Source: a virus
Taxonomy: Duplodnaviria > Caudoviricetes
Virus record (IMG/VR): IMGVR_UViG_3300016654_000301
Span: 1-38,726 of that record
DNA length: 38,726 bases
Reading direction: 5' to 3' (one strand)
This document shows positions 1 through 37,380 of the stretch, piece after piece. Within the stretch, counting starts at the first letter, position 1, and every line of letters begins with the position of its first letter. A program made the translations under genes and the position numbers. Under the pieces are notes generated by a model, which was not told the DNA's origin, did no database searches, and saw only the letters and a program-made list of their open reading frames with translations.

Positions 1-1068
1 TTACTTGGTAGGGTTCACTTTTTCTCCAACTCGGCGGTACACTTTCTTTGTCATTTCTTCCGTTGAATGACCAAGCAAGCGGCTCGCATCGGTGATATCC
101 TCAATCTCACTAGCTGCTTTGGGACGGATATCCCTGAACTGGAATTTCCTGATCGTAACTGCCAGCGCTGTATCACCTTCGACTGCGGCTTTGGTTGCGG
201 CCCTGTCCCGCGCTTCGTCCCAACGGTTACGCAGCATGTTGTAACTCATTCGGAGTCCAGCCTGGTTAGTTATAAGGATTGAGGTTTTGACGCCCGCCTG
301 CGTTCTGCGATCAAGCAGGCCATTGATGAAGATGCACAGGGCTGTCTCGGTCTCCCCGGCGTACAGTTGAATGCGCAGCCGTTTTCCCGTTTTACCTTGG
401 CCAACCATCAGGAAGCCGTTGTTGAGATCAGTGGTCGAGGCCTTGAGTACATCGGCCGCTCGCTGACCTGTCAGATAGGCTAGGTCCATGGCATCTCTGA
501 GATCTTGCCCCGCTTGTTCGTATACCGCTTTCCAAACGATATCCCCGGCATAGAAGTCCCTCGGTGTTTCCTTGTTCCGGCGCAAGCCGAAGCAGGGGTT
601 GGCTTTGTCGGTCAGCCCCCACTCGCGGGCGAAGGTGAACATAGTGGATAGCAGTGCTATCTCCCGATTGGCGCGAACCTTTGCCGTACGTGCATCTCGA
701 TACTGGGCTATCACCTGAGGGCTCATCGCTTCTATTGGCGCTGACTCGAAAGCTTTTCGAAGCTGCTTCAGGCTCAAGAGGTAGTCCCGTTGTGTGCGCG
801 CTTTCAGTGTCGGTATTATTTTCGATGCGTAGTCGTCAAAGAGTCGATCCATCAGGTGCGCGGGCTTGGGCGTCGCCTTGCGGTCGAGGCGCGCCCATTC
901 GATCTTGGCTTCGTCGAGGTCTCCGCCGAGCGGTATCTCTACGCGGTTGCCGTCGGCGTCCCTGCCGTTGTAGTAGTAGCCCGTCCAGATACTGCCGCCT
1001 TTTCTTTTGCGGGTGCGCCGGATCATTCGTGGTGGCAGGTCTCGGTTGGCTGGCTTCTTCTGTCGCAT
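1..1068 (-). CDS. int: Phage integrase, tyrosine recombinase
   Basis: 355 aa; LTGQR (catalytic R), FRDIR (H-x-x-R variant), LLGH, and TKKVY (catalytic Y). Confidence 0.95.
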   Translation of the reverse strand: MRQKKPANRDLPPRMIRRTRKRKGGSIWTGYYYNGRDADGNRVEIPLGGDLDEAKIEWARLDRKATPKPAHLMDRLFDDYASKIIPTLKARTQRDYLLSLKQLRKAFESAPIEAMSPQVIAQYRDARTAKVRANREIALLSTMFTFAREWGLTDKANPCFGLRRNKETPRDFYAGDIVWKAVYEQAGQDLRDAMDLAYLTGQRAADVLKASTTDLNNGFLMVGQGKTGKRLRIQLYAGETETALCIFINGLLDRRTQAGVKTSILITNQAGLRMSYNMLRNRWDEARDRAATKAAVEGDTALAVTIRKFQFRDIRPKAASEIEDITDASRLLGHSTEEMTKKVYRRVGEKVNPTK

Positions 1069-1070
1069 CG

Positions 1071-1355
1071 TCAGCCCACACGTGCCAGGTCAAGAGTCCA
1101 GGTTTCGGTCACGGCGTTGTTAGCCGTGGGTTTCACGCCCGCCAGCTTCAGACGGGCATAGACCCGCCCGACAATAGGTCGCTGGGCGCCGGTCAACACG
1201 AACTCCCAGTGATTGCTGGTTAGCCACTGGCGTTGGCAGGATGGGATCTTGTAGCCGGTGATGGTGGCTAGCTCTTCGTCGGTGAGAGTTTCACTCAGGA
1301 ATTCCATGGACTGACTCCCGATGGTGGATATAGCTGTGATGCACTGGTTGTTCAT
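1071..1355 (-). CDS. Excisionase-like protein (DUF4224 type)
   Basis: LTDEELATITGYK...QRQWL...GAQRPIVGR pattern; directly upstream of int; ATG overlaps the MTase stop (ATGA). Confidence 0.8.
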   Translation of the reverse strand: MNNQCITAISTIGSQSMEFLSETLTDEELATITGYKIPSCQRQWLTSNHWEFVLTGAQRPIVGRVYARLKLAGVKPTANNAVTETWTLDLARVG

Positions 1356-3430
1356 GCGGCCTCCCGGATTTGCTCTGCCTGACGCCAGGGATCGTTTGCC
1401 CGGGCGATCGCAGCCATCGGCGGCGGGCTGACGCTGTTGCCGCACATGTGCACCTGCTGAGTCTTGGTGAACGGCTTGCCGTCGGCACCGTGGCTGATGA
1501 TGTAGTCGGTGGGGAAACCTTGAGCCTTGTACAGTTCGGCCGGTTGCAGCATCCGCAGGCAGATGTCGACGATCACGTACGGCGTGCCCTTTATGGTGAC
1601 GGTGACCAGGCCCAGCCGATCCTTGGTGGTGATGGTTGGCGCTGGTGCGTCGGCGGCGCTCATGTTCTCGGTACCGTAGTAGCTGATCAGGAACGCGGCG
1701 ACTCGTAGCGCGCCTGCTTCAACCTCTGGCGACAGTTGTAGCTCGACCAGCGAGCTCTTGCCGCCACCGTCGGCGGTGATTGTTGGTGCCGGTTCGTCAA
1801 CACCCTGACCGACACTGGCCCCGAACTGGCGCTCCATGAAGGCGGTGACCAGCCCGTGGTGAGTGCCGCCGGCGCTGATGGTGTGCAGTGGGTCGCCGAC
1901 GTCCCGCGCATCGCAGTTGCCGCGCAGGTGCACCAGGTTCGCGGTCACCAGCTGCTGCTGGCTGCCGGTGTTGGTCACCGTGGTCATCGGGTCCTCGATG
2001 CTCTTGGCAGCCGTGGTGTTGAATCCGCCATTCATCTGGGCCATGAACACCGTCGAGATGCCCATGGCGTGGGCGGCGCCGGCCGGGCGCTGGTAGTTGC
2101 CGCCGCTGGTGATGGTCGGCAGCGGTTCGTCGAGGGCCTTACCCTCATCCGAGAACCGGAACTTGACCAGGTGTGCCGCTGCGAGTGCGCGGTGGTTCTG
2201 GGTCATCAGCGTGCCGACTGGCTGATCGGCTGACACTGGTTTGCCGCTGTACGCCGGGACACCGGCGCCGACCATCACTGGACTGATCAGCGTCAGCTCG
2301 CCGCGATTCGCGCAGGTCACCGTCGGCAGCGGGGCGTGAGGATCGTTGATCCGGTCGCTGCCCTGGTGCGTGACGGGCGCAATGATCGGGCTGGCCATGG
2401 CGAACGACCCTCCGCGTGGCCAAGATGTCACAGTGCGCAGCGGCTCGTTCGCGGATTGAACGCTTTCGCCGGACCAGTTCGCGATCGGCACAATGAACGG
2501 GTCGGCGGCATCGATGACGAACTTCTTCATACCCTTGGCGATCCGGCGCAGCGTGGCGTCTGCGAGCGGAGTTGGTCGCCCGAAAATACTTTTGGTCGGT
2601 ACCGTCCAGTCGATGCACTCGGCGGCGGTGCGCCACTTCTTCTGACCCCTTACCGGATTTTTCGCGTGGGTTGGTTCTGGCCGCACAATCGGCTGGCCAT
2701 CGCAGCGGGCAATCATAAAAAGACGTTCCCGGCTGGTTGGTGCGCCGTAATCGCAAGCCTTCAATACCCACCACTCCACGGTGTAGCCGAGGCGCCGTAA
2801 CTCGGCGACGAACACGGCCCAGGTCTGCCCGCGGCGAGCTGGGTCTGGTACCAGGAACTGATTGTTAACCGGCACAATTTCGCCCTGGTCCGCAACGCGG
2901 TTGATTTTGCTTTTCGGTTTGGTTGGGTGCGGTATCAAATCGAGAGTCACCACTCGGCCGGTGACCTTGCAGCGTTTGGCGATCAGCGGCCCCCACTGGA
3001 GGATCTGTTTCACGTTTTCCAGGCTGATGACTCGAGGCTTCTTCTTGCCGGCCCACTTCAGGCCGATCCACGACAGGTTCCGGATCTCGCGCTTGCGCGG
3101 CTGGCCGCCGGCGGCCTGGCTGTGGTGCGTGCAGTCCGGCGACATGTGGAACCAGCCCACGGCCTTGCCGCCGCACTCGGTGTCCGGATCACCGTCGAAC
3201 ACGTCGGTCGTGTAGTGAACGGCGCCCGGGTGATTAACGGTGTGCATGCTGATCGCCTGCGGGCTATGGTTCTTCGCAACGTTCACCGCGCGACCCAGGC
3301 CCATTTCCAGCCCGGTACCGGCGCCGCCGCCACCGCAGAAGAAGTCGACAACGATCTCATCGTCCTGAGTGTTGAAGCCCAAGGCGTACTGGGTTTTGAA
3401 ATCGAAGGGTGGTTTCTTGAATGCTGTCAC
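1352..3430 (-). CDS. Orphan DNA (cytosine-5) methyltransferase
   Basis: Motifs DFFCGGGGA (I), SPDC (IV), ENV (VI), RERLF (VIII), GNSV (X); GTG start at 3430 coupled to the upstream stop. Confidence 0.92.
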   Translation of the reverse strand: MTAFKKPPFDFKTQYALGFNTQDDEIVVDFFCGGGGAGTGLEMGLGRAVNVAKNHSPQAISMHTVNHPGAVHYTTDVFDGDPDTECGGKAVGWFHMSPDCTHHSQAAGGQPRKREIRNLSWIGLKWAGKKKPRVISLENVKQILQWGPLIAKRCKVTGRVVTLDLIPHPTKPKSKINRVADQGEIVPVNNQFLVPDPARRGQTWAVFVAELRRLGYTVEWWVLKACDYGAPTSRERLFMIARCDGQPIVRPEPTHAKNPVRGQKKWRTAAECIDWTVPTKSIFGRPTPLADATLRRIAKGMKKFVIDAADPFIVPIANWSGESVQSANEPLRTVTSWPRGGSFAMASPIIAPVTHQGSDRINDPHAPLPTVTCANRGELTLISPVMVGAGVPAYSGKPVSADQPVGTLMTQNHRALAAAHLVKFRFSDEGKALDEPLPTITSGGNYQRPAGAAHAMGISTVFMAQMNGGFNTTAAKSIEDPMTTVTNTGSQQQLVTANLVHLRGNCDARDVGDPLHTISAGGTHHGLVTAFMERQFGASVGQGVDEPAPTITADGGGKSSLVELQLSPEVEAGALRVAAFLISYYGTENMSAADAPAPTITTKDRLGLVTVTIKGTPYVIVDICLRMLQPAELYKAQGFPTDYIISHGADGKPFTKTQQVHMCGNSVSPPPMAAIARANDPWRQAEQIREAA

Positions 3431-3969
3431 GCGTACGTCCTCCGGTGGCTGCTTTGCATCAGCTCCATCAGTCGGTTGAAGTACTGCATGCCTGCCTCTT
3501 GTGCCGAAAGTGGGGTGATGTACTCCCGCATCGGTGGGATACCGCGCAGGCATTCCCATTCGGCAGGGTGGTCGGGCATCAGGTCGCGACGTTCGGTGGC
3601 CAGCGCCACCAGATCGGCGCGCACCACGCACTCGGGCAGGATGGGGTCGAGGTTGAATCGTGCACAGATCGCCTGCCAGATCAGTGTTTCCATCACGCGA
3701 TAGCCTGGCATGATGGCTTTAAGTGGGCTGGTCATATCTCCGAGGTACGCTTCCGGCGCATCGTGGAGCATCGCCGCCAGTTGGTCCTCCTCGGGGACAA
3801 GGCTTGCAACCAGCATGCTGTGCTGGGCAACGCTGTAGTGCGTGCGGGTGTGGCCGTTGAAACGGCACAGGTTGGCCAGTGCGTGCGCGATATCGTTGGG
3901 CGCAATCATGGCGGCGGTCGGGTTTGTCAGGTTGAACTGGCGACCGCTGTGCGTGAGTATCCAGCTCAT
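3427..3969 (-). CDS. HD-domain phosphohydrolase (YfdR/5'-deoxynucleotidase-like)
   Basis: DIAHALANLCRFNGH, YSVAQHS, LHDAPEAYLGD motifs. Confidence 0.9.
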   Translation of the reverse strand: MSWILTHSGRQFNLTNPTAAMIAPNDIAHALANLCRFNGHTRTHYSVAQHSMLVASLVPEEDQLAAMLHDAPEAYLGDMTSPLKAIMPGYRVMETLIWQAICARFNLDPILPECVVRADLVALATERRDLMPDHPAEWECLRGIPPMREYITPLSAQEAGMQYFNRLMELMQSSHRRTYA

Positions 3970-4616
3970 GCTGCGTCCCCCTTTGGCCACAGACCCAGCT
4001 CAACGGCTTGGCGGTTGTGATGGAGTTCGAATGCTTCACGCAGCGCGTCGCGCAGGTGCGGATAGCCCTCGGTGTCGGCTTCGTGGGGGAAGCTGATCGA
4101 ACTGAATTCCGGCGCCGCGCTGAAGGTGCCGTGCTTGTCGAGCCATTCGATGAGCTGGGTGTCCAGTGGCTGGGCGTTGAGGTTGCCGGCCATCTCGACG
4201 GTGTGGAAGACGCGGTACGCCATGGCGCGGGCAACCTTGATCAGCTGTTCGGCTTTTGCCTGGCTCGCCTCGGTGCCTTTCAAGGCTTTCCACGTTTGCA
4301 GTGCGAGCGCCAGAAACTGGGTGATCTCGGTCAAGTCGCGATAGTCGACCGGGGTGAAAGGTGTGGCTTTGATCCCGTGCATCTGCGTGCGCAGGTCGGC
4401 CAGTTGTTGGGCTTCGCGGTTGCGAAGTTGCGTGATCGTGACGAGGTCAGTATTCAGCACGGCTACGCGCTGACTGTGCAGGGCGTTGCGTTCGGTGAGG
4501 CCTTTGTTGTAACTGCGGGCCATTGCTTTCAGAACGATTTTCCGGATGTAGAACCCCAAAAGCAGCAGGGCGGTTAGGGTTCCGCTGGCGATGATGATCA
4601 GGTCTTGTGCTTGCAT
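3966..4616 (-). CDS. Hypothetical phage protein with N-terminal TM helix and coiled coil
   Basis: 216 aa; GGAG SD; hydrophobic N-terminus; translationally coupled to the next gene. Confidence 0.75.
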   Translation of the reverse strand: MQAQDLIIIASGTLTALLLLGFYIRKIVLKAMARSYNKGLTERNALHSQRVAVLNTDLVTITQLRNREAQQLADLRTQMHGIKATPFTPVDYRDLTEITQFLALALQTWKALKGTEASQAKAEQLIKVARAMAYRVFHTVEMAGNLNAQPLDTQLIEWLDKHGTFSAAPEFSSISFPHEADTEGYPHLRDALREAFELHHNRQAVELGLWPKGDAA

Positions 4617-4693
4617 GTGCTGTGCTCCGGTAGAGCCCGCCGCCGGGATTCTTGGTGAGAGGCCGGCGGCGGGGTGTTGCGATGGTGTTGGGG

Positions 4694-5503
4694 TTATGCG
4701 CTGAAGGTGCCCAGGATCAGCGTGGCGGTGCCGCCGACTTCCTTGGTGAGTGCGGTCTTAAACTCTTGAGCGATCTCTTCGACCTGTTGCTCTTCGCCGG
4801 CCCAACGCAGCTTGAGGGTTGGCTTGTCGTCGCCGGTCAGGATGCTGAGCTTCAAAGTGAAGATGCGGGTGCCGAGGCCGTCATACGGGATCAGTGAGAA
4901 TTGCAGAGCTTCAACGCGGGTTTCAGCGGACGCCGCTTCGATGCTCTCCATTGCGCTGCGTGCAGCGCTGAAGTTGTGCTCACTGCTGGTGGCGGTACTG
5001 CGCGCTTCGATGGTGATGTTGCGCACGCTGGCAACGGCGGCGCTGATCGGCATGGTCGCACCACCTTCTTTGATGGCTACTAGGCTCGCGTGCCAGTCCT
5101 CGATCCATTCGGCGAGTTCACGCTGGTTGAGCTTCCTTCCGGCAATTTCTTGAAGCGCTTTGTACGCGGCAGTTGGCTTCAGCTTCAGCGTTGCAAAGTC
5201 ATCCGCATGTCCGGGTGCCTCATCGGTGCCGAGGTTGAAGAACACCTGGCAGCTCATGTTGTCTTGATCAATGAAGCCCCTTGCTGCCGGACCGCTGCGT
5301 GAAATCGTGTATTCGGCGAAGTCGCGCAGACTGTTGGTATGCAGTTGGCCGCGAAAACGCAGACGCCCCGCCTGATACTGTTCCAGGTTGTGGATCTTCA
5401 CGCCCACGGGCAGAGCCGCCAGCGGCATCAGGGCAGAGGGTAGGGCGGCAGCGGCGCCGGCTTGGTCGAGAATCAGCTCCAGTGTGTCTTTAGCGAGTGG
5501 CAT
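4694..5503 (-). CDS. DUF2303 (YfdQ-like) phage protein
   Basis: LEQYQAGRLRFRG, FNLGT..PGHAD, QRELAEWIEDW patterns. Confidence 0.85.
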   Translation of the reverse strand: MPLAKDTLELILDQAGAAAALPSALMPLAALPVGVKIHNLEQYQAGRLRFRGQLHTNSLRDFAEYTISRSGPAARGFIDQDNMSCQVFFNLGTDEAPGHADDFATLKLKPTAAYKALQEIAGRKLNQRELAEWIEDWHASLVAIKEGGATMPISAAVASVRNITIEARSTATSSEHNFSAARSAMESIEAASAETRVEALQFSLIPYDGLGTRIFTLKLSILTGDDKPTLKLRWAGEEQQVEEIAQEFKTALTKEVGGTATLILGTFSA

Positions 5504-5554
5504 TGGTATTTCCCTTTTGGTGAGAGGACTTGGTATTGCGATCAGATGCGCGCG

Positions 5555-5896
5555 TTATCGGGCGTGCACCGGGGTATCGGCCTTGTCGAAGAGCTGCGAC
5601 GTCGGGTTGTTTTGGAACAGGGTCAGGCCATCCGGTGTGACGTAGAGCGGCGTGTCGAGGGTGGAGTCCTCGCGCAACTTTCCGCGTTTGGTTGGTTGCT
5701 GGAAGTCGAGGGTGTGGCTGACGGCGACCTGGTTGCTCTGGCCGATCTGTTTCATCTTCAGCGTGATGGTTACCTGGCCGGCCTTGCCATGGTCGATGAC
5801 GCCGGCGGCGACGTTCGACAGTGCCTGGCCGACTTGCTGCGCGAAGACGCCGGCGTTGAGTGAGTTGAAGAAGTCGTTCGTGTCTGTGGCTTTCAT
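5555..5896 (-). CDS. Conserved phage protein (YfdP-like), usual neighbour of DUF2303
   Basis: MKATDTNDFF...LNAGVF...PTKRGK...TPLYV; GAGG SD. Confidence 0.75.
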   Translation of the reverse strand: MKATDTNDFFNSLNAGVFAQQVGQALSNVAAGVIDHGKAGQVTITLKMKQIGQSNQVAVSHTLDFQQPTKRGKLREDSTLDTPLYVTPDGLTLFQNNPTSQLFDKADTPVHAR

Positions 5897-5954
5897 GTGC
5901 TGTGCCTCATTGAGTTTGTGTTGTTGCGCCTGATCGGCAGGCGCCACCGTGGAG

Positions 5955-6197
5955 TCAGGCCGCTTGCTTCGGCGCTTGGGCGTCGAGGTATTCAGCCAGG
6001 TGATGCAGGTACACCACCGGTTTCGCGCGGGCCGAGTTGTGCAGGCGGGTCACGGTCAGGTTTATGCGGCCGGCCTTGATCTCGCTCAGCAGGTAGCGGT
6101 CGGTGCGGATGTGGGTGAAGTAGTGTTCGCGTACTGCCGTCAGGGACGGGCAGGGCGTGGCGAACTGGCGGCGCAGTTGATCGATTGTGTCGCTCAC
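5955..6197 (-). CDS. Pyocin activator PrtN-family protein
   Basis: 80 aa; CPSLTAVREHYF...VVYLHHLAEYLD pattern. Confidence 0.75.
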   Translation of the reverse strand: MSDTIDQLRRQFATPCPSLTAVREHYFTHIRTDRYLLSEIKAGRINLTVTRLHNSARAKPVVYLHHLAEYLDAQAPKQAA

Positions 6198-6577
6198 GCT
6201 GCGTTCTCCCCGTGCCCCTCTGTTGGGGGCAGCAACTTCAGGCGGATCATTTCGGCCAGTCCTTCCTTGCTTTTGCCCATGGCGGCGGCGCAGACGTGGC
6301 CGTGGGCGTCCGCGACAACTGCGCCGAATGGGTATTCAGGTGAGTTGGTCGGGGTGACGTAGGCGGTTTGGCCTTCGTGGATCACGTTGTTGACGCAGCG
6401 GTACACGTCGGCCAGTTCGAGCACGCGCATCGGCAGGGCGCTGAGCTGGTCTATCGCTTCGCTGGCGGCGCCAATCAGCGTTGCGCGGCTGACGATGCCG
6501 GGGCTGTCCAGGTAGATCGGAATCAGTCGGAGCGTGCCGAGCGCCATGCAGTGAGCATTGAGGTATTCGTTTTTCAT
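6194..6577 (-). CDS. Hypothetical phage protein
   Basis: 127 aa; ATGA overlaps at both ends. Confidence 0.75.
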   Translation of the reverse strand: MKNEYLNAHCMALGTLRLIPIYLDSPGIVSRATLIGAASEAIDQLSALPMRVLELADVYRCVNNVIHEGQTAYVTPTNSPEYPFGAVVADAHGHVCAAAMGKSKEGLAEMIRLKLLPPTEGHGENAA

Positions 6578-6852
6578 GCGGCGGCGTCCTTGTTCGTGAT
6601 GGTGATGCCCAGCTTTTTCGCCAGCCAGTCGATCCCTTCTTCCTTCACCATCACTACGGCGTAGTGGCGGAGCTTGTTGATGCCGGGGATCACGGTGCTG
6701 CGTGGGTCTGAGAACAGATAGCCCCGGTCCCGGTGCTGGCTGGCAAGGTCGCCGCTGCTGTTGAGGATGCCCAGCTCGCGCAGCCTGGCGCGAAAGGCGC
6801 GGGGCTTGAGTCCGAGCAGTGCGGCGGTTTCGTCCAGGGTGCGGTTCGTCAT
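6574..6852 (-). CDS. Phage antirepressor KilAC-like domain protein
   Basis: LDETAALLGLKPRAFRARLRELGIL...GYL...VKEEGIDWL pattern. Confidence 0.7.
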   Translation of the reverse strand: MTNRTLDETAALLGLKPRAFRARLRELGILNSSGDLASQHRDRGYLFSDPRSTVIPGINKLRHYAVVMVKEEGIDWLAKKLGITITNKDAAA

Positions 6853-6862
6853 GGCTTCGCCC

Positions 6863-7129
6863 TCAGACCGACGCTGGGGCGTTGGCGACTTCATGAATGA
6901 AGTCGCGCAAGTGCAGATGATTTGCCCGGTCACCTCGGCGTAGCCTGATCGTGTCTTTGCGGCCAGCCACATCGACTTGGACGATTGTCTGGCTAGGCGT
7001 CAACTCAACCGTGAATTCGGCGCGCATCGTTTGCTGAGGACGTATCAGGTCACAAGTAGCATCGCCGCCGACCTGCAGCATGTGGTGCAGCAGCTCTTGC
7101 TTCGCAAGGGGGAGGGAATATGCGCTCAT
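6863..7129 (-). CDS. Hypothetical phage protein
   Basis: 88 aa; coupled in the leftward operon. Confidence 0.7.
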   Translation of the reverse strand: MSAYSLPLAKQELLHHMLQVGGDATCDLIRPQQTMRAEFTVELTPSQTIVQVDVAGRKDTIRLRRGDRANHLHLRDFIHEVANAPASV

Positions 7130-7323
7130 GCCGCGTCACCCCCGAACGGACCCAGATCCGGCGCGGCAGTCACTGCTTTCGCAGATGCCAGGCGGGCGCC
7201 GGGGGTGATGATTACCAGCAAGCCAGTGTGCTTTTGAATTGCTTCGACGGCCGCCGGGCTGGTACAGGCTGCTGGGTGTAGGTACACCGGGCAGCGGGTG
7301 GTGCTGTGCTGTGTCGTTTGCAT
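7126..7323 (-). CDS. Hypothetical phage protein, first gene of the pL operon
   Basis: 65 aa from ATG 7323; ends GGDAA, overlapping the next start. Confidence 0.65.
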   Translation of the reverse strand: MQTTQHSTTRCPVYLHPAACTSPAAVEAIQKHTGLLVIITPGARLASAKAVTAAPDLGPFGGDAA

Positions 7324-7357
7324 GGCTCGTACTCTTGGTGAGAGGTGTACGAGCAAA

Positions 7358-7411
7358 AGACTATACATACGGTTTTGGATGGTCAATACGCAAACGCATA
7401 AATATGCGTTT
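7358..7411 (-). promoter_or_regulatory. pL promoter with operator
   Basis: Minus strand TTGACC-N17-TAGTCT; ATACG-N4-CGCAT at 7386-7399; palindrome at 7392-7411. Confidence 0.6.
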
Positions 7412-7467
7412 TGAAATGCTAACCGACCAACGGCAAGACGTGGAAGTGTGTGGTTACGCTGCGGAAA

Positions 7468-7980
7468 CTAGGATTTATCTGATTCGGGTCGCTCGACGAA
7501 CAGCAGCTTCATTTCGGAGAGGCGGTAGGATCGCAACGCTTCTAGGAGGTCTTGGTCCTCTTCGTATATCTCTGCGATGTACTCGTTTATGAAGCCTTGA
7601 ATTGCGAGTGCAAGCGATTTTTCTTGTTCTAGAGATGTGAATGTCTTCGACCCCTGAGCGTCGACGACCTTGATTTCCAACTTCGTGCGACCCCTTGCAG
7701 ATTTGGGGCCTAAGCGCTTTTGGGGCCGGGCGCTAATCGGTTCGGGTTCGGTGGTGGGTAGCGTTTTTAGGGGAAAGAGGTCCTGCTTTCCAGTCCAAAG
7801 CCAGTTTGCAGATACTCCCAAAGCCTTCGCTATTTTGAGAATGTTTTGCTGCCTGGGACTTTGTGACTCTCCCGTCATTATTCTGTGAATAGTCGGTTGT
7901 GGTACGCCAGAAATTCGACCCAGTTCTGTTTGCGATAGACCTAGCTCACCCATACGGTCGGCTATTCGTTTGCGAATCAT
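7468..7980 (-). CDS. CI-like repressor, XRE HTH, no recognisable S24 peptidase domain
   Basis: LGLSQTELGRISGVPQPTIHRIMTG...IAKALGVSANWL; divergent from cro. Confidence 0.88.
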   Translation of the reverse strand: MIRKRIADRMGELGLSQTELGRISGVPQPTIHRIMTGESQSPRQQNILKIAKALGVSANWLWTGKQDLFPLKTLPTTEPEPISARPQKRLGPKSARGRTKLEIKVVDAQGSKTFTSLEQEKSLALAIQGFINEYIAEIYEEDQDLLEALRSYRLSEMKLLFVERPESDKS

Positions 7981-8018
7981 TCGGGGGATCCTAGCTTGAA
8001 ATATACGCCCTCATTCTA

Positions 8019-8047
8019 TTGCATGGGTATATACGTGTGCGTATGAT
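8019..8047 (+). promoter_or_regulatory. pR promoter with internal operator
   Basis: TTGCAT-N17-TATGAT; palindromic ATACG-TGTG-CGTAT at 8031-8044. Confidence 0.7.
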
Positions 8048-8077
8048 CTGAAACGTATAAACGAATCGGAATTGACT

Positions 8078-8272
8078 ATGAACATCCCGGAAATGCTGAA
8101 GGAGCTCATGAGTCTGGGGTTCACCCAGCGCGGCATCGCCATACAGATTGGCACAACGCAGCCAACCATATTCAGGGCCATCAATGGTGCTGATGTGCGG
8201 TACGAGCTGGGCAAGGCAATAGAAAGCTTGTACGAGAAAGAGGTCGGTGCGGGTAGATTGAAACGCGCCTGA
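8078..8272 (+). CDS. cro: Cro-like HTH regulator
   Basis: 64 aa; GFTQRGIAIQIGTTQPTIFR; recognition helix (QPTI) similar to that of CI. Confidence 0.85.
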   Translation: MNIPEMLKELMSLGFTQRGIAIQIGTTQPTIFRAINGADVRYELGKAIESLYEKEVGAGRLKRA

Positions 8273-8513
8273 AAGTGCCAGGCTGGGGCCTCTCACCAAA
8301 GAATCCCCCAGCCCAGCTGCAACGAGTTACATGAGTTACATACAGCTCGCTACATAGATCGTCGGCTCGGGGCCTCTCACCACAAGATCTCCCCGGACTG
8401 ACTGGAACGATGAACCGTGCGGCACAGCACGATTAGCACAGCACATCGGTCGTGGTCGTAGGATAGGGCGTGTCCCATCTGATGGCTAGGCCGTAAACGG
8501 GGTATTTACGGTT

Positions 8514-9002
8514 ATGAGTCGAACAGATCTCCTTCCGGGCGCTGGCCCGGTTCTTTCTTTGCGCGAGGCGCTTTACCGCGCCGGGCGCGATTTCCGGGGC
8601 GGCATCACAACGTTGGCCCATGACATGTTCATGGATTACGACGAGCTCCAGAAGAAACTCAAACTCAACGAAGAGCGCCGCTGGTTGACTCCCGATGAAC
8701 TCGAAGAGGTCATCCGGTTGACGCAGAACCCTGCATTGCTCGATGCGCTTGTGAGGCCGGCGGGTGCCGTTTGGTACAAGCCGACGCCAGTGCCTGCAAC
8801 GTCTGAGGCGTTGAAGTCAGTTGGCAAGCTACTGGAAAGAACCGGCGAATTTGTTTCGAGCATGCATGCCGGTGCGGCTGACAACGTATGGGAGCCGCAC
8901 GAAGTCGCTACCCTGGACAAATACGGCATCGATGTCATTCAGGCGGTGCTGGGCATCATGGCGGGCGCGCGTCAGGCCATGGAGGGTCAAGACAATGGCT
9001 GA
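8514..9002 (+). CDS. Phage regulatory CII-family protein
   Basis: GGITTLAHDM...LQKKL...LTPDELE; position after cro. Confidence 0.75.
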   Translation: MSRTDLLPGAGPVLSLREALYRAGRDFRGGITTLAHDMFMDYDELQKKLKLNEERRWLTPDELEEVIRLTQNPALLDALVRPAGAVWYKPTPVPATSEALKSVGKLLERTGEFVSSMHAGAADNVWEPHEVATLDKYGIDVIQAVLGIMAGARQAMEGQDNG

Positions 9003-9201
9003 CGATATCGATCGCGCCAACGACCAGGCGCAATACCTGCTAGACGTTGCCCTTCATCGAAACCGCCGCATGGCGACGAGCCGCGTCAGCGCGCAGTTCT
9101 GTGAGGATTGCGACGATGCTATCCCGTTGCTTCGACAGCAGACGATTGAGGGTTGCGAAACCTGCGTCCATTGTCAGGAGTTGCGGGAGGCTCGGAGATG
9201 A
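8995..9201 (+). CDS. TraR/DksA C4-type zinc finger protein
   Basis: MADDIDRA...CEDC...IP..R....GCETCVHCQ. Confidence 0.9.
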   Translation: MADDIDRANDQAQYLLDVALHRNRRMATSRVSAQFCEDCDDAIPLLRQQTIEGCETCVHCQELREARR

Positions 9202-10235
9202 GCGGCGATAAAATACCACTCCAAGTTCACGAATTGCCAAACCTCCTTCAGTACATCTCGCCAGACCAGCGTGACACGTGGGTCGAGGTTGGCATGGGCC
9301 TGAAATCTGAGTTCGGTCAGGAGGGTTACGGCCCCTGGAACAACTGGAGCCAGAGCAGCAAGAGCTATGACGGCAAGGCGGCTTTGTCCGTCTGGAAGTC
9401 GTTCAAGAAGGGCGGTACCGGCATGGGCACAGTGATCAAGCTGGCCCTTGATGCGGGTTGGAAGGCCGACAAAACCGAAATGTCTGCCGAGGAAAAGAAG
9501 CGGTTTGCGGCAGAAGCTGAGCTGCGGCGCAAACAGCGTCAGGCGGAGGTCGAGGCTGACGAAGCTTTACTCGAGGAGATGCGTGGTCTGGTGGCTGACT
9601 GCTGTTTGCGAATCTGGAACGAGCATTGTCAGTCGGAGGGGCGCAGCCCGTACCTTGACCGTAAGCAGGTTGGCGCGTTCGGTGTCGGGTTCTTCAGCAC
9701 CACGGTCATTCTGTCTATTGATGATCGTAACAAACGCTGTCAGGTGTGGGCTGGCAGCAACGCGATGCAGTTTTTCAACGGTTTGCCCAAGCCTCGGCCC
9801 GACTACCTGAGTTTTCTGGTGTTCAAGCCGGGCAGTATTGCGATCCCGCTTCGTGATGCCGCAGGCAAGTTGTGGAGCCTGCAATCGATCAATGGGCAGG
9901 GAACCAAACTGTTTCCGAAGTACGGGCGCAAGTCCGGGTGCTTCCACGTGTTGGGCGCGGTCGATTCGCCGGCGGTGGTTGGTGAAGCCGAGGGTTACGC
10001 GACGGCCGCAAGTGTTCACATGGCCAGCGGTTGGCCCGTAGCGATGGCGGTTGACTCCGGCAACCTGGTGAACGTCGCCCGAATTCTGCGTGAGGCGCAT
10101 CCTGAAGCATCGATCGTCATCGCGGGAGATGATGACCCGACTGCACCTGGTAATCCCGGACGGACCAAAGCGACTGCCGCAGCCCTTGAGGTCGGTGGCG
10201 TTGCTGCGTTCCCGTATTTTGGGGAGGTTGCTTGA
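9198..10235 (+). CDS. Primase: PriCT-2 domain plus Toprim (N-terminal portion)
   Basis: WVEVGMGLK...WNNWS..S..Y...WKSF; SPYLDRK; LWSLQSI; EGYATA; IAGDDD. Confidence 0.88.
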   Translation: MSGDKIPLQVHELPNLLQYISPDQRDTWVEVGMGLKSEFGQEGYGPWNNWSQSSKSYDGKAALSVWKSFKKGGTGMGTVIKLALDAGWKADKTEMSAEEKKRFAAEAELRRKQRQAEVEADEALLEEMRGLVADCCLRIWNEHCQSEGRSPYLDRKQVGAFGVGFFSTTVILSIDDRNKRCQVWAGSNAMQFFNGLPKPRPDYLSFLVFKPGSIAIPLRDAAGKLWSLQSINGQGTKLFPKYGRKSGCFHVLGAVDSPAVVGEAEGYATAASVHMASGWPVAMAVDSGNLVNVARILREAHPEASIVIAGDDDPTAPGNPGRTKATAAALEVGGVAAFPYFGEVA

Positions 10236-11947
10236 TGGCCAAGGACTGGAATGATTTGCACATCGAGCAAGGGCTTGATGTTGTGCGCACTCAGCTTTAT
10301 GCAGCCGCTGCTTCTGCTGTCCCTGTTCAGTTGGAAGACCTTCCCCGTTCCCCATCTCTGGAAGAGCCCGCCGAAAACGGCGCTACGGCTCCAGAGGGGG
10401 GCGGGGGGAACGGCTGGACGGCAGAACGGATCTTCACGCGGTTTGCGTTGGTCGAGGGCAAGACGGCGATTTTCGACACGTTCAAACGGGTGATCATCAA
10501 GAAGTCCGCGTTCGAAATGCTGGTGACGAAGCCGCTTGCGAAGGAATGGCTTGATCTGCCGGTGAAGAAGGTGATCGCCGATGACATGGCCGAGCGCTTG
10601 GCGAATAAGGCCAAGGCAGAAGCGAAGTTCAAACAGGTCAGCGGGGAGGGCATGCCCCCGGTTGAGCGTTACGTTTATATCGACGGGACGAAGGACACGT
10701 GGGACGTACAGAAGCGCCGGCGCGTTCCGGAAGGCGCGCTAAAGATGTCGCTGGGTGATGCGTATGGCATGTGGTTGAACAGTCCAGATCGCCGCACGGT
10801 GGATATGGAACACATTGTTTTCGATCCGCGTATGACGAAAGACCCTGAGGTGTATATCAACACTTTTGAGGGGCTTCCCCTGGTGCCTGACAGTGATCGC
10901 GGCAAGTGCAAGACCTTGCAGTGGATCATCACATTTCTTTGCAACGGTGATCGAGACGCGGCTGACTGGCTGACGAAGTGGCTTGCCTTCCCGTTGCAGA
11001 ATGTCGGCGCGAAAATGGATACGGCTGTGCTGTTCCACTCGACAGAGGAAGGCAGCGGTAAGAGTCTTCTGTTCAGTGACATTATGGGCCGGATCTATGG
11101 TGACTGCGGCGCAACGGTTGGCCAGGCACAGCTTGAGTCGAACTGGACGGTTTGGCAGTCGAACAAGCTGTACGGTGTGTTTGAAGAGGTTGTCAGTCGG
11201 GACCAGCGTTACAACCAGGTCGGCAAGATCAAACACATGGTCACCGGTAAGACGGTTCGGATGGAGTCCAAATTTGTAAATGGTTGGGAGGAAGCCAACC
11301 ATATGAACGCGGTGTTCTTGTCGAACGAGATTATGCCCTGGCCGATCGGGGAGAAGGATCGGCGAATGTTGGTGATGTGGCCCAAGGATCCATTACCCGA
11401 GGCCGAACAGAAGAAGGTCAAACATGAGCTGGCCAACGGTGGTGTCGAGGCGCTTTATGACTATCTGCTGAGCTATCCGCTCGGTGACTTCGATGAGCGC
11501 ACCAAGCCGCCGAATACGTCCGCACGCCAGCGGCTGGTTGAGCTGAGTATGGCGAGCTGGCAGACGTTCTTGCGGGAATGGCGATACGGAATGCTTGGTG
11601 CTCCGTTTACGGTGTGCGTGAGCAGTGACCTTTATGCGTTGTTCCTGGAGTGGTGCCACCGCAACAAGGAACACACGCTGAGCCACACGAAGTTCAGCGG
11701 CTTCATTTCGACCCAGGTCGATAAAGTGCCTCGGGTGCCTTGGATGGAAGGCGCCCGCCGGTCATTCGGTACGTTCTTCTTTCCGTGGTCCGGTGTAGAG
11801 CGTGCGCCTTCCCCGGCCCCATCCTTGACTGCAGCTGCGCTCGGAACAGCGGTTGCCACGTGGCGGGAGCAGGCCAAGGCCAGTGGCTGGAGCGTGGATA
11901 GCTGGGAGCATGTTAAGTTCGCCGACCGGGGGAGTGTGGCCGCATGA
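10235..11947 (+). CDS. Primase-associated P-loop helicase (DUF5906/SF3-like)
   Basis: Walker A EGSGKS, Walker B VFEE, FLSN, DRR; N-terminal DWNDLH. Confidence 0.88.
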   Translation: MAKDWNDLHIEQGLDVVRTQLYAAAASAVPVQLEDLPRSPSLEEPAENGATAPEGGGGNGWTAERIFTRFALVEGKTAIFDTFKRVIIKKSAFEMLVTKPLAKEWLDLPVKKVIADDMAERLANKAKAEAKFKQVSGEGMPPVERYVYIDGTKDTWDVQKRRRVPEGALKMSLGDAYGMWLNSPDRRTVDMEHIVFDPRMTKDPEVYINTFEGLPLVPDSDRGKCKTLQWIITFLCNGDRDAADWLTKWLAFPLQNVGAKMDTAVLFHSTEEGSGKSLLFSDIMGRIYGDCGATVGQAQLESNWTVWQSNKLYGVFEEVVSRDQRYNQVGKIKHMVTGKTVRMESKFVNGWEEANHMNAVFLSNEIMPWPIGEKDRRMLVMWPKDPLPEAEQKKVKHELANGGVEALYDYLLSYPLGDFDERTKPPNTSARQRLVELSMASWQTFLREWRYGMLGAPFTVCVSSDLYALFLEWCHRNKEHTLSHTKFSGFISTQVDKVPRVPWMEGARRSFGTFFFPWSGVERAPSPAPSLTAAALGTAVATWREQAKASGWSVDSWEHVKFADRGSVAA

Positions 11948-11957
11948 TGACCAGAAG

Positions 11958-12250
11958 TGTGTCAGGTGTGTTCCCTGTGTTTCAGGTTGAAATTCGAAAC
12001 CTGACACAACTACAGCCCACGGTTTTCGCGGGTTTCCGTACTCGTGTGTCAGGTGTGTCAGGTTTTACCCGCGTGCAGGCGTGCGCACGCGCAGAAACAA
12101 TGACACTTCATCAACACTTAATTCAATTTTTCATGCGTGAAGAACAACCCAACACACCTGACACACCTGACACAGTAGTTTTAAAGCAATGTTTTATAAG
12201 GGTTTTTGGTGTGTTGGGTTTGTGTCAGGTTTATGGGTTTATGTGTCGGG
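11958..12250. repeat. Iteron-like 9-bp repeats (TGTGTCAGG) in both orientations; probable replication origin
   Basis: Forward copies at 11958, 12045, 12054, 12221 (variants 12210, 12242); inverted copies at 12000, 12157, 12166 (variant 12148); AT-rich stretches between. Confidence 0.75.
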
Positions 12251-12275
12251 TTCGGTTTTTCGGGGGGAAGGCGCG

Positions 12276-12764
12276 ATGATCGAGGAAATTGAGGAGCTCA
12301 TGCAGCACTGGGGCAATCAGTTCAACCAGGTAGGCGAGGGTGGCGGTTTGGGTAGCCCGATGGCGACGATCATTGAGTGGGGTGGTTCGGCGCCTCGCGG
12401 TACGCCGGGATCTCGCGATTTGATGATGGCGGCAGGTGGCGGCATGGATCACGTTGCACTGGAAGTTGCCGCAGCGCTGGCGCAGCTTGAGCGTCAGTCC
12501 GAGAAGGGCGCGCTGTTGGTGACCCTGGCGCGGAATCGTTATTTGCCTCGGCCTGCGTTGTCGGTTCGGTCGCAGTTGCCCTATCTGGGGCTCGGGGAGG
12601 ATGCCGACCGGACGTACAGGAACTGGGTTCATGCGCTGCACCAGCAGGTGCTGGTGATTCTGACCGTGCGTAGTGCGCCGATGCGTGATCGCAATCGACG
12701 TGTCAGATCGCCGCAAACTGGGCTGACGCGCGCGTCGAAGGTCGCCCGCGTGAGGGTTTGCTAG
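12276..12764 (+). CDS. Putative Q-like late antiterminator/activator
   Basis: IEELMQHWG N-terminus and C-terminal HTH-like RTYRNWVHALH; sits between replication and lysis/packaging genes. Confidence 0.65.
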   Translation: MIEEIEELMQHWGNQFNQVGEGGGLGSPMATIIEWGGSAPRGTPGSRDLMMAAGGGMDHVALEVAAALAQLERQSEKGALLVTLARNRYLPRPALSVRSQLPYLGLGEDADRTYRNWVHALHQQVLVILTVRSAPMRDRNRRVRSPQTGLTRASKVARVRVC

Positions 12765-12961
12765 TTACCGTTCGTCCGGGTTGTTTGCCTCAAACCTGCG
12801 TCAAAGTGCGTCAAAGGTGCGTCGAGACAACCAACCGAAAATAGGCCCTTTTCGGTTTTTCCGGAGGCAGGTAAAAAGTCCCCACGATATGCGATTTGCG
12901 CCTGAATCGCTCACTGAGCACGTGCTGTGCAGCTTCACCCGGTTCTCCCCGAGCCGGTCAC

Positions 12962-13315
12962 CTAACCCCGCTTCGGCGGGGTCTTATTTGATTCCTTGGC
13001 GAGGGCCTTCTTGGCCTGGCTAGCACCTAGCCAATAGCCCACACCCATAGCAGTGAGAAGTAGACCGGCGGATCCGTTAAAGAAGCTCATAACCAAGTCA
13101 ACAATGTCTTTACGGCTTAAGGGTTCGACGCTGATGGAAAAGTCGTAAACCTGATAGTACGAATACGCTGTGATTCCAACACCTATTAGTAGCAGGAACG
13201 ATTTGAGTGTGAACGATGTGACCTCAATACGCTCATGCTCAGTGGCTTTCACCCAGTTGAACAGCACTGCGAAAAAAAGTGCCAGTAAGCTGATAACTAT
13301 TGTTATGTAACTCAT
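12962..13315 (-). CDS. Moron: small membrane protein with about 3 TM helices
   Basis: 117 aa; opposite strand to late genes; AT-richer; GAGGG SD. Confidence 0.7.
   Translation of the reverse strand: MSYITIVISLLALFFAVLFNWVKATEHERIEVTSFTLKSFLLLIGVGITAYSYYQVYDFSISVEPLSRKDIVDLVMSFFNGSAGLLLTAMGVGYWLGASQAKKALAKESNKTPPKRG
12965..12990 (+). terminator. Intrinsic terminator (tR'-like)
   Basis: ACCCCGC-TTCG-GCGGGGT followed by CTTATTT. Confidence 0.7.
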
Positions 13316-13477
13316 CGCGTTCCCTCACATCGAAGAACGCGAATGATATTCCATGTACCGCACTGATAGTAGTTACCCACCTTTTGTACTTCGGGGTCAA
13401 ACCTCAAAGCTCATGTAGATCGTATAGATCGCTTCGGCGTTTTTTCTGCCCAATGGATATTTGCAAGGAGAGTCAGC

Positions 13478-13831
13478 ATGAGCGAGCCGGCAACTGTTGT
13501 CGTGGCCGGTGGTGTGGGACTTGCGGCCACTGGACTGCTAGCGGGCGTGGACATGCTCGCGGTGATCGGTGCGTTGGCTGGTTCTCTGGTGTTCTTCACC
13601 ACCACTGAGGAATTGCCGGTTTGGAAGCGTGTTCTGTTCCTGCTGGTGTCTTTCGTGATGGGTTACATGTTCGCCCCTGGCATGGCCGAGGTTGAGTTGT
13701 TCGGCACCAGGCCTTTCAAGTACACCGGGCCGGCGGCGTTCGGCGCGTCGGTGGTGGTTGTGACCGTCGCGCTTGCTGTCATCAAGCGGCGCGGCCTCAT
13801 TGCTGAACAGCAAGGGAGGCAGGATGGATAG
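13478..13831 (+). CDS. Putative holin
   Basis: Multi-TM; VIGALAGS motif; basic C-terminus; AGGAG SD. Confidence 0.8.
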   Translation: MSEPATVVVAGGVGLAATGLLAGVDMLAVIGALAGSLVFFTTTEELPVWKRVLFLLVSFVMGYMFAPGMAEVELFGTRPFKYTGPAAFGASVVVVTVALAVIKRRGLIAEQQGRQDG

Positions 13832-14114
13832 TCAACTGATGCCACAAGTGCTAACGCAGGCCACGTTCTGGTTGTGCGTGGCACTGTTCGTTCGCCTGTT
13901 CACTTTCCGCCGGCGCGGTGCCCGGTTCCGTCGGAGCATGAGTTGCCTTGCCTGGGTGGTGATGGTCGCGGCGGGATCCACCGTGGTGTACATCGGCAAG
14001 GGACAGTTGGTCATGCCGACGAACTCTTGGCCGCTGGTGATCGTGCTGGCGGTGTTCGTTGGGTCGGTGTACCAGAGCGGTGGAAATCTGGCCCGGGTCT
14101 GGAAGATGGGCTGA
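13824..14114 (+). CDS. Second holin-family protein
   Basis: RLFTFRRRGARFR...SCLAW...GGNLARV pattern; 3 TM helices. Confidence 0.8.
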   Translation: MDSQLMPQVLTQATFWLCVALFVRLFTFRRRGARFRRSMSCLAWVVMVAAGSTVVYIGKGQLVMPTNSWPLVIVLAVFVGSVYQSGGNLARVWKMG

Positions 14115-31513: not shown

Positions 31514-32540
31514 AACACCTTCATTGCCGGTACTCATCAGCCGAACCCAGAGCGATCTGGCAAACGATGCGCTCCGTCGATCCGACGCTCAGGTTCTGGC
31601 AAGAACAGTCAGTGGCACTGCTTACGGCTTGTACGGTTATCTGAACTGGATTGTCGAGCAGATCCTGCCGGACAAGGCGGATGAAGAAACGCTTGAGCGA
31701 ATTGCAGCACTGCGGCTGAACCAGCCGCGCAAAGCTGCTCAGGCGGCGGAAGGCATGGTCAGCTTCACCGCCGTTGCCGGCGCAGTCCTTGATGAGGAAG
31801 TCGTGCTGCAGTCTGGTGATGGTCGCATGTACCAAGTTGCAGAAGAGCTGATCACGATTGCCGGACTGAACAGTGCGCATGTTCGGGCAGTAAATGCCGG
31901 TAATCTGGGCAACGCCGGAACGGGAGGGCAGTTGTCGTTGGTGCAGCCAGTTCCTGGTGTAACCGATGCATTCACCATTCTGGCGCCTGGTCTGGTGGGA
32001 GGGATTGCCGAGGAAAGCGTCGAGTCCCTGCGGGCCAGAGTTATTCGATCCTATCGGGTGATTCCCCACGGTGGTTCTGCTGATGATTACGAAACGTGGG
32101 CAATCGAGGTTCCAGGCGTTACGCGGGCGTGGTGTCGGCGTAATTATATGGGCCCGGGTACAGTCGCTGTATTCGTCATGCGTGACAGTGACCCTGTACC
32201 AGTGCCAAGCCCTGCGCAGTTGGCCGAAGTTAAGTCTCATATAGAGCCGTTGCGGCCAGTGACGGCTGAAGTCTACGTGCTGCCTCCCGTCGAGAAACAT
32301 GTTTCCTATTCCATCCGCGTCCGGCCGGACACCTCTGCAATCCGTTCCGCAATCGAGGCTCAGCTTATCGACTTGCACGAGCGTGAAGCGGGGCTGGGTG
32401 ACACGCTGTTGCTAACGCATATTCGGGAAGCAATCAGCGGTTCGTTCGGCGAAGTTGATCATGACCTGGAATGGCCGGTGGCCAACGTCACGGCCGCGCC
32501 TAATGAGCTGCTGGTCTACTGGGGTGTCTTATGGTTGTAG
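31503..32540 (+). CDS. Baseplate J / Mu gp47
   Basis: QILPD.ADE, GG..EE....LRAR, GG..DY..WA..VPGV. Confidence 0.93.
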   Translation: MPFETPSLPVLISRTQSDLANDALRRSDAQVLARTVSGTAYGLYGYLNWIVEQILPDKADEETLERIAALRLNQPRKAAQAAEGMVSFTAVAGAVLDEEVVLQSGDGRMYQVAEELITIAGLNSAHVRAVNAGNLGNAGTGGQLSLVQPVPGVTDAFTILAPGLVGGIAEESVESLRARVIRSYRVIPHGGSADDYETWAIEVPGVTRAWCRRNYMGPGTVAVFVMRDSDPVPVPSPAQLAEVKSHIEPLRPVTAEVYVLPPVEKHVSYSIRVRPDTSAIRSAIEAQLIDLHEREAGLGDTLLLTHIREAISGSFGEVDHDLEWPVANVTAAPNELLVYWGVLWL

Positions 32541-37293: not shown

Positions 37294-37380
37294 GCCCGAA
37301 TGGCGAAACTGGTAGACGCATGGGACTTAAAATCCCCCGCTCGTAAGGGCGTGCCGGTTCGATTCCGGCTTCGGGCACCA
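37294..37380 (+). tRNA. tRNA-Leu (TAA)
   Basis: 87 nt; GCCCGAA/TTCGGGC acceptor stem, anticodon TAA at 37328-37330, long variable arm, GGTTCGATTCC, CCA. Confidence 0.96.

What the first reader, a model, noticed from the sequence alone, without database searches (positions are those of the whole stretch)
4636..8395. Five-copy hairpin-loop motif CCUCUCACCA, always in transcript sense, in both early operons
Seen: CCTCTCACCA(A) occurs in five intergenic positions. Three are on the minus strand, at 7335-7345 (just before the first pL gene), 5517-5527 (before DUF2303) and 4652-4662 (before the 216-aa gene). Two are on the plus strand, at 8289-8299 (right after the cro stop) and 8373-8382. The motif sits in the loop of stems whose sequences differ between copies: gctcgtac/gtacgagc, an 11-bp cccgccgccgg/ccggcggcggg, ggctgggg/ccccagcc and cgggg/ccccg. 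The 5517 copy has only a weak stem that includes the SD. Inference: a conserved loop with variable stems and strict strand polarity points to an RNA element rather than a DNA operator. Two copies lie where lambda nutL and nutR do, yet no lambda N homolog is recognisable. It may be an uncharacterised nut/put-like antitermination site or a translational operator. PrtN-like and small pL proteins are candidate readers.
Basis: partly seen in the sequence, partly recalled or inferred. Interest (0 to 1): 0.85.

Follow-up and report, generated by a model that had tools for sequence, protein, structure and literature searches.

The report
Prophage antisense RNA gating early genes
The repeated motif is real and conserved across many Pseudomonas prophages; three copies are likely landing sites on the phage's early-gene message and two likely encode, on the opposite strand, a small antisense RNA that is predicted to block those genes and would add an RNA layer to the dormancy-versus-lysis switch.

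Summary
The five CCTCTCACCA copies are real (0.04 expected) and conserved in 88 of 95 related loci. The 'always sense, nut-like' reading is likely wrong.
The two post-cro copies sit behind a conserved minus-strand promoter (63 of 67 representatives). In fluorescens-type phages their stems fold better on the minus strand. They likely encode an RNA of about 185 nt (about 80 nt in most relatives) with GGUGAGAGG and GUGCUGUG loops.
The boxes mark all 4 uncoupled pL starts and 0 of 8 coupled junctions. Gap loops and targets change together, even between sister phages with an identical PrtN-like protein. An inverted repeat beside the -35 tracks the CII type, so the promoter is probably a CII-activated pE.
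It likely works like P1 c4 or lambda aQ but matches no Rfam family. Expression, pairing and sign are untested; the U-tail is weak and one wobble test was neutral. This scan found the same kind of element before on other genomes, and those notes supplied the gap-RNA idea.

The parts
8270..8453 (-). Predicted antisense small RNA, about 185 nt here and about 80 nt (two hairpins) in most relatives; ends inferred
   Evidence: Folds at z -2.9 on minus vs -1.5 on plus; own covariance model hits 8270-8350 and 8354-8453, both on minus; helix covariation in relatives
8483..8488 (-). Predicted -35 hexamer (TAGCCA) of the antisense promoter
   Evidence: Found 27-29 nt from the cII start in 63 of 67 representatives
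8460..8465 (-). Predicted -10 hexamer (TATCCT), 17-nt spacer
   Evidence: Spacer 17 nt in 57 and 18 nt in 6; inner -10 bases vary by clade
8491..8511 (.). Inverted repeat CCGTAAA-N7-TTTACGG between the cII start and the -35; candidate CII-binding site
   Evidence: Arm type follows CII N-terminal cluster (87/92, 42/42, 7/7), not the 51 repressor clusters; physical linkage to cII not excluded
8422..8444 (-). Box B' loops (two GUGCUGUGC copies) of the predicted RNA
   Evidence: fold; 10-12 nt complementarity to the 4615, 5895 and 7301 sites
8362..8402 (-).
8318..8355 (-). Middle hairpin of this expanded array, no conserved target assigned
   Evidence: Fold; varies among 2x and 3x arrays
8277..8317 (-).
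   Evidence: its two outer A.C appositions on plus are G.U pairs on minus
7335..7345 (-). Target box A, 22 nt before the first pL gene
   Evidence: at -22 to -25 in 73 related loci
7301..7313 (-). Target box B in codons 4-8 of the first pL gene
5895..5906 (-). Target box B abutting the AUG of the YfdP-like gene (5555-5896)
5516..5527 (-). Target box A just 5' of the SD of the DUF2303 gene (4694-5503); usually unstructured
4652..4664 (-). Target box A in an 11-bp hairpin, 46 nt before the 216-aa gene
4615..4626 (-). Target box B abutting the AUG of the 216-aa gene (3966-4616)
7358..7386 (-). Likely pL promoter (TTGACC-17-TAGTCT); its start would fall at or inside the 5' arm of the first-gene stem
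   Evidence: Read from sequence; not flagged by the strict scan; inference
7468..7980 (-). cI-like repressor gene
   Evidence: HTH_3, PHROG repressor
8078..8272 (+). cro-like gene
   Evidence: phrog_6831
8514..9002 (+). cII gene, Phage_CP76 family
   Evidence: PF06892, phrog_101
12890..12990 (+). Leader between the 162-aa gene (12276-12764, Q-like by position only) and the lysis genes; carries the box B complement at 12918-12930 and ends in a terminator at 12965-12982; second candidate antisense RNA
   Evidence: complement on the late strand in 55 of 68 distinct loci, the box itself in 0

Best explanation
The three pL copies are likely target sites and the two post-cro copies likely encode loops of a small antisense RNA, predicted to be made from a minus-strand promoter beside the cII start and to pair with the four independently translated pL starts, where it would block translation. 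Shown: the motifs, their fixed positions at starts, complementarity, co-change, the conserved promoter-like site and the fold. Inferred: CII activates this promoter as a pE homolog, so when CII is high the phage makes both the RNA and, by read-through past the weak U-tail, cI message. The RNA's short loops (UGGUG, UGUGC), flanked by weak G.U-rich stems, would nucleate on box A and box B and cover the SD-AUG regions. Because 8 of the 12 pL genes follow an overlapping or near-abutting junction, closing four starts would silence the whole operon, including the antirepressor-like, xis and int genes. The RNA is also fully complementary to the cro-cII stretch of the pR message, so pR and this promoter would titrate each other.
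For: Minus-strand structure: 42 A.C vs 8 G.U in 68 gap stems on plus; three G.U pairs in helix 1 kept in 29-30 of 31 sequences, 6 pairs with two-sided changes, 0/500 shuffles; z lower on minus in 48 of 62. Promoter pattern at a fixed offset in 63 of 67, at 182 nt in 3 more, vs 13 of 3350 random stretches. Co-change: own target word in own gap for 49 of 49 CTCTCAC phages and 10 of 15 others. L011 vs L097 switch all detected sites with CII 98% identical, and mosaic L100 carries two loop types matching its two target types. Boxes at 4 of 4 uncoupled starts, 0 of 8 coupled junctions. Over 68 loci, box matches on the pL strand lie near ATG starts (A 125 of 142, B 147 of 179; background 14%), with only 8+8 on the pR strand. 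Core target variants are 10 of 10 C>T, which G.U tolerates. The box is shared across 23 repressor clusters.
Against: No direct evidence of expression, pairing or sign. Strand bias is clade-limited: fluorescens-type 29 minus/5 plus/12 tie, stutzeri-type 2/0/6, aeruginosa-type 2/3/5. The broader wobble test was neutral, 5 vs 6, and the 10 C>T cases are only 4 distinct variants of a common mutation type. The terminator is weak: 18 of 33 short RNAs have at least 4 U in 10 nt, the window has ACUUUC, and the A-run partly comes from the cro stop codon. Plain duplex energy separates targets poorly: pL1 4th and DUF2303 6th of 38 for loop A. Five of 15 non-CTCTCAC phages lack their exact target word in the gap, and 'own match beats all other classes' held in only 13 of 64. 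The promoter pattern and box classes were written after seeing these loci, and the loci are related. Co-change alone also fits a phage-specific protein reader.
Confidence: 0.7

Rival explanations
1. Sense-strand RNA loop read by a phage or host protein: nut/put-like antitermination or a translational operator.
For: Positions resemble nutL and nutR; the motif lies in loops on the mRNA strand; phage-specific co-change is what an N-boxB code gives (established lambda/P22 knowledge, recalled); the g216 stems lean to sense (15 G.U vs 8 A.C). A resemblance to the phage 21 boxB loop is recalled only; one search listed one review that I did not read.
Against: Gap stems favour minus. DUF2303 sites mostly have no stem. 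No N family hit and at most 5 Arg in 15 aa in the 10 of 12 pL proteins checked. Identical PrtN-like protein with different boxes. Only one terminator-like site in the pL operon. The late leader carries the complement of box B, not the box.
Confidence: 0.12
2. Same RNA-RNA pairing, opposite sign: the RNA opens the target hairpins and activates translation, IsrK-like.
For: The first-gene SD lies in the 3' arm of its stem; IsrK activates through translational coupling (PMC12197685 section 9); int lies at the end of this operon and is needed for lysogeny.
Against: Box B sits directly on the SD-AUG spacer of two genes, and box A abuts the SD of the unstructured DUF2303 start, where pairing should occlude the ribosome.
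Confidence: 0.08
3. The promoter is just pE for cI establishment, and the gap hairpins act in cis only (attenuation, processing, or a decoy in the pR message for the late-leader RNA); the pL boxes serve another reader.
For: Position and CII-linked repeat fit pE (PMC6593788 passages); weak U-tail; the late leader independently carries box B'.
Against: Does not explain why box A loops change together with sites 1-4 kb away, or why L100 carries two loop types.
Confidence: 0.06
4. Polar double-stranded DNA site (stoperator) bound by CI, Cro or another phage protein.
For: Short, asymmetric, intergenic and oriented with transcription, as L5 stoperators are (PMC9283540 passages); first-gene stems show no RNA strand bias (17 A.C vs 14 G.U).
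Against: One box is shared by 23 repressor clusters, and boxes differ within single clusters; compensatory stems; fixed distances to start codons.
Confidence: 0.04

Closest known systems
c4 antisense RNA of phages P1 and P7 (Rfam C4 RF01695; targets c4-a1b1 RF03163)
   Same: Structured phage RNA with complementary sequences in loops that pairs near ribosome-binding sites and blocks translation; specificity differs between related phages (PMC12197685 section 9). The two-box layout is implied by the Rfam target family name.
   Different: No match to the C4 model in the gap (the C4 hit in L113 is a separate element). It sits in the cro-cII gap on the strand opposite pR, targets four starts across 2.7 kb of the other early operon, and grows as a 1-3x loop array.
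Lambda aQ RNA (paQ) and OOP RNA; P22 sar
   Same: Antisense RNAs of the lysis-lysogeny decision; paQ acts alongside pRE and pI in the lysogenic response (PMC12197685 section 4) and is cII-dependent per the title of its reference 20.
   Different: Those act mainly in cis on one overlapping gene through long complementarity; this one would act in trans through 9-13 nt seeds on several genes.
Phage 186 pE and CII
   Same: CII-family protein (Phage_CP76 here); a promoter convergent with pR that makes cI message; CII binds an inverted repeat at -38 and -58 (PMC6593788 passages).
   Different: Here the repeat spans 21-27 bp directly upstream of the -35, with closer half-sites, and the 5' part of the transcript is a conserved multi-loop RNA; the passages I read describe none for 186.
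Lambda nut (boxA-boxB) and HK022 put
   Same: Hairpin-loop motif near both early promoters, phage-specific sequence (recalled).
   Different: Multiple copies at internal gene starts, no recognisable N, and structure evidence on the opposite strand at the post-cro site.

Membership tests
C4 antisense RNA (RF01695 clan) | Match to the C4 or c4-a1b1 covariance models | tested here: not met
   No hit in 4400-8700 at E up to 10, in the window at gathering, or in the gaps of 11 relatives
C4 antisense RNA (RF01695 clan) | Two short boxes in loops complementary to two boxes at target start regions | tested here: met
   (computational complementarity only)
C4 antisense RNA (RF01695 clan) | Encoded in an immI-type operon in front of the antirepressor gene it controls | tested here: not met
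   Lies between cro and cII; the antirepressor-like gene (6574-6852) is in the other operon and has no box of its own
C4 antisense RNA (RF01695 clan) | Expressed RNA that represses its target | not testable with these tools
   No run on record as RNA was listed
nut site (N antitermination) | Cognate Arg-rich N protein in the pL operon | tested here: inconclusive
   No Pfam or PHROG N hit; at most 5 Arg in 15 aa in 10 of 12 pL proteins; a very divergent N cannot be excluded
nut site (N antitermination) | Hairpin functional on the sense strand after cro | tested here: not met
   Gap stems favour the minus strand in fluorescens-type phages
nut site (N antitermination) | boxA upstream of the hairpin | not tested
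   No formal search run
nut site (N antitermination) | Terminator read-through | not testable with these tools
   Needs reporters
Stoperator | Sequence follows repressor specificity | tested here: not met
   Same box across 23 repressor clusters
186-type pE promoter | Promoter convergent with pR next to the start of a CII-family gene | tested here: met
186-type pE promoter | Inverted repeat bound by CII | tested here: inconclusive
   Repeat type tracks CII type, but it is physically linked to cII and its spacing differs from -38/-58

The most novel reading that the evidence does not exclude
These phages run a modular RNA immunity layer. A CII-driven antisense RNA gains and swaps loops to match a mosaic set of early-gene starts, and a second RNA from the late-promoter leader shares its box B seed. 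Because one box is shared across more than 20 repressor types, a lysogen's RNAs would also silence the early operon of repressor-heteroimmune relatives.
Probability: 0.3. Interest if true: 0.88.

Novelty: new variant of a known kind. Interest (0 to 1): 0.72.

Why it matters
If true, a widespread group of Pseudomonas temperate phages, including isolated ones (KT1, Lodos, LPPA56, vB_PstS-pAN), has an undescribed RNA layer in the lysis-lysogeny switch. One small RNA would close a 12-gene operon through its four uncoupled starts, with a pairing code that changes between sister phages. This would explain how an early operon without a recognisable N or intrinsic terminators is controlled after transcription. 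It would also predict immunity groups independent of the repressor, and offer natural orthogonal RNA-target pairs for Pseudomonas engineering.

Tried and rejected
Rfam: only a tRNA in the window; three chance-level hits, none on the gap; none in the gaps of 11 relatives. Expression: no RNA holder listed. Four runs only guessed to be RNA were laid as contigs; they include records up to 38-40 kb and cannot show strand, ends or level, so they are not used either way. The strict promoter scan found no site in 1-14000; the promoter rests on comparison. The wobble-asymmetry test over 64 representatives was neutral. Duplex energies of isolated loops against 38 start regions were not selective. A third target class was sought and not found: other gap matches lie near starts in 35 of 184 cases vs 14% background. 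The one-mismatch site near 31993 lies inside an ORF and was set aside. The assembly is the window itself, so no host background count was possible. Literature searches listed nothing that describes this element; subscription papers and bioRxiv supplements were not searchable, and the 2014 paper on 186 CII was not held.
Full report
Observation. The window is a complete-looking Pseudomonas-type prophage. It has a leftward early operon (65-aa first gene to integrase), cI, cro, a CP76-family cII and a primase-helicase pair. A second motif, GCACAGCAC, occurs six times against 0.75 expected. I call these box A and box B.

Conservation. Ninety-five loci were fetched with the first pL protein. They fall in four fixed places: 22-25 nt before the first pL gene, 23-37 nt before DUF2303, about 45-52 nt before the gene after DUF2303, and the cro-cII gap. 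The gap holds one copy in 63 loci, two in 7, three in 10 and none in 6, of 86. The DUF2303 site is mostly unstructured (stem in 5 of 57), so a stem is not required for the site. These loci are related and are not independent trials.

Change of reading. My recorded reading favoured translational or antisense control through the late leader. Earlier AI notes of this scan (later) proposed that the cro-cII gap of related prophages encodes an antisense RNA. I took that as a lead and tested it on my own loci.

Strand of the gap structure. With stems found in a strand-neutral way, 68 distinct gap hairpins have 42 A.C and 8 G.U appositions on plus, so the wobble pairs form on minus. First-gene stems are neutral (17 vs 14) and the stems before the 216-aa gene lean to sense (8 vs 15). 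On 64 de-replicated phages the vote is 33 minus, 8 plus, 23 tie. This comes from fluorescens-type phages (29/5/12); it is weak in the stutzeri type (2/0/6) and absent in the aeruginosa type (2/3/5). For 33 short RNAs (of 62 predicted; those up to 90 nt), 99.6% of cells pair, six pairs show two-sided changes, and three G.U pairs are kept in 29-30 of 31 distinct sequences. The window's 8268-8456 folds at z -2.9 on minus and -1.5 on plus; minus is lower in 48 of 62 relatives. A model built from the short RNAs hits both window units on minus, and the gaps of KT1, Lodos and LPPA56.

Promoter and end. A TAGCCA-like, 17-18 nt, TA...T pattern lies 27-29 nt from the cII start in 63 of 67 representatives, 182 nt away in three more, and is absent in one; random stretches match in 13 of 3350. 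I wrote the pattern, so the fixed offset and constant spacer length carry the weight. Between the -35 and the cII ATG is a 21-27 bp inverted repeat. Its arms follow the CII N-terminal cluster (87 of 92, 42 of 42, 7 of 7) while the repressors split into 51 clusters. Phage 186 CII activates pE by binding an inverted repeat (PMC6593788 passages), so I infer a pE homolog; linkage to cII is an alternative cause of the correlation. The 3' end is a hairpin with a modest U-tail (A-run of 3 or more on plus in 45 of 62, T-run in 0 of 62; 4 or more U in 18 of 33), partly owed to the cro stop codon. Read-through to cI is therefore plausible.

Targets. In the window the boxes mark the first pL gene and all three genes preceded by a gap of over 50 nt, and none of the eight junctions with gaps of 10 nt or less. 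Complementarity is 10-13 nt. Over 68 loci, gap matches of at least 10 nt with box A or B fall on the pL strand near ATG starts (125 of 142; 147 of 179; background 14%), with only 16 on the pR strand; the box classes were defined from the targets. Plain duplex energies rank the true targets only moderately well.

Co-change. Sixty-nine further loci came from three distant queries; 128 of the 164 loci (window included) with a first-gene hit had both regions usable and were reduced to 64 representatives. All 49 with CTCTCAC targets have that word in their own gap, and 10 of the other 15 have their own variant. Of the five misses, two differ by a single T/C change that G.U would tolerate. The longest shared word averages 11.6 nt with the own gap and 7.0 with other classes; the strict 'beats all others' count was only 13 of 64. 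Variants switch among sister phages on a CII tree. L011 and L097 share CII at 98% and a PrtN-like protein at 100%, yet use CTCTGAC and CTCTCAC at all detected sites; L100 has two target types and both loop types. Core target variants in fluorescens-type phages are 10 of 10 C>T, in 4 distinct forms, but a wider test gave 5 vs 6.

Second candidate RNA. The leader at 12890-12990, ending in a terminator, carries the complement of box B on the late strand in 55 of 68 distinct loci and never the box itself. The stutzeri-type leaders carry a variant matching their own targets, and the box-less relatives L014 and L160-L163 lack it. Its role is untested.

Mechanism. Shown: motifs, positions, complementarity, co-change, promoter-like and fold signals. 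Inferred: transcription of the RNA, CII dependence, pairing, repression, and silencing of coupled genes. I put 0.70 on repression by the gap RNA, 0.12 on a protein-read sense loop, 0.08 on activation, 0.06 on cis-only roles and 0.04 on a DNA site.

Known systems. It likely works like c4 of P1/P7 (loops pairing at ribosome-binding sites, phage-specific; PMC12197685 sections 4 and 9) and like the lysogeny-promoting aQ RNA. It fails the C4 model and context tests, so it is not filed as C4. Papers seen: PMC12197685 (passages and two sections); PMC7067206, PMC6593788, PMC2864571, PMC9283540 and PMC11846083 (passages only; the last describes Lodos and Turba and has no occurrence of antisense, small RNA, non-coding or CII). 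Nine searches listed no description of this element; that library lacks most subscription papers. Lambda nut, HK022 put and phage 21 boxB details are recalled, not from a call.

Verdict. Observation confirmed, interpretation partly supported. New variant of a known kind; interest 0.72, limited by the lack of any expression or functional data.

Noticed in passing
window 12890-12990 (+): Late-promoter leader with the complement of box B (12918-12930) and a terminator; conserved in 55 of 68 distinct loci and absent in box-less relatives; second candidate antisense RNA.
   Followed up: partly
window 8331-8342 and 13304-13315 (-): The middle hairpin of the gap RNA is complementary to the first 12 nt of the backward-facing 117-aa gene; seen only in the window among 68 loci, so chance is likely.
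   Followed up: partly
window 4607-4681 (+): The reverse complement of the 216-aa gene's leader scores against the RNA model (28.6 bits), hinting that the RNA unit arose as an inverted copy of a target leader.
   Followed up: no
window 7370-7400 and 8030-8050: ATACG-N4-CG(T/C)AT-like palindromes at pL and between cI and cro; candidate CI/Cro operators, read from sequence only.
   Followed up: no
window 9198-11947 (+): PriCT_2/Toprim primase and DUF5906 helicase are two ORFs here, both matching one PHROG family (phrog_2249); Lodos annotates a single bifunctional primase.
   Followed up: no
window 37294-37377 (+): tRNA gene near the right end.
   Followed up: no
L100 9301-9491 and L124 13084-13265: Rfam RT-15 RNA hits in the downstream pL region of two relatives.
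   Followed up: no
L113 2334-2527: A true C4 RNA plus c4-a1b1 in the pR operon of a relative that also has the gap array, so both antisense systems can coexist.
   Followed up: no
L011, L097 and L100, cro-cII gap: The promoter pattern lies in mid-gap (182 nt from cII) with further box hairpins between it and cII, and the CII-side repeat is missing in L011; possibly two RNAs.
   Followed up: no
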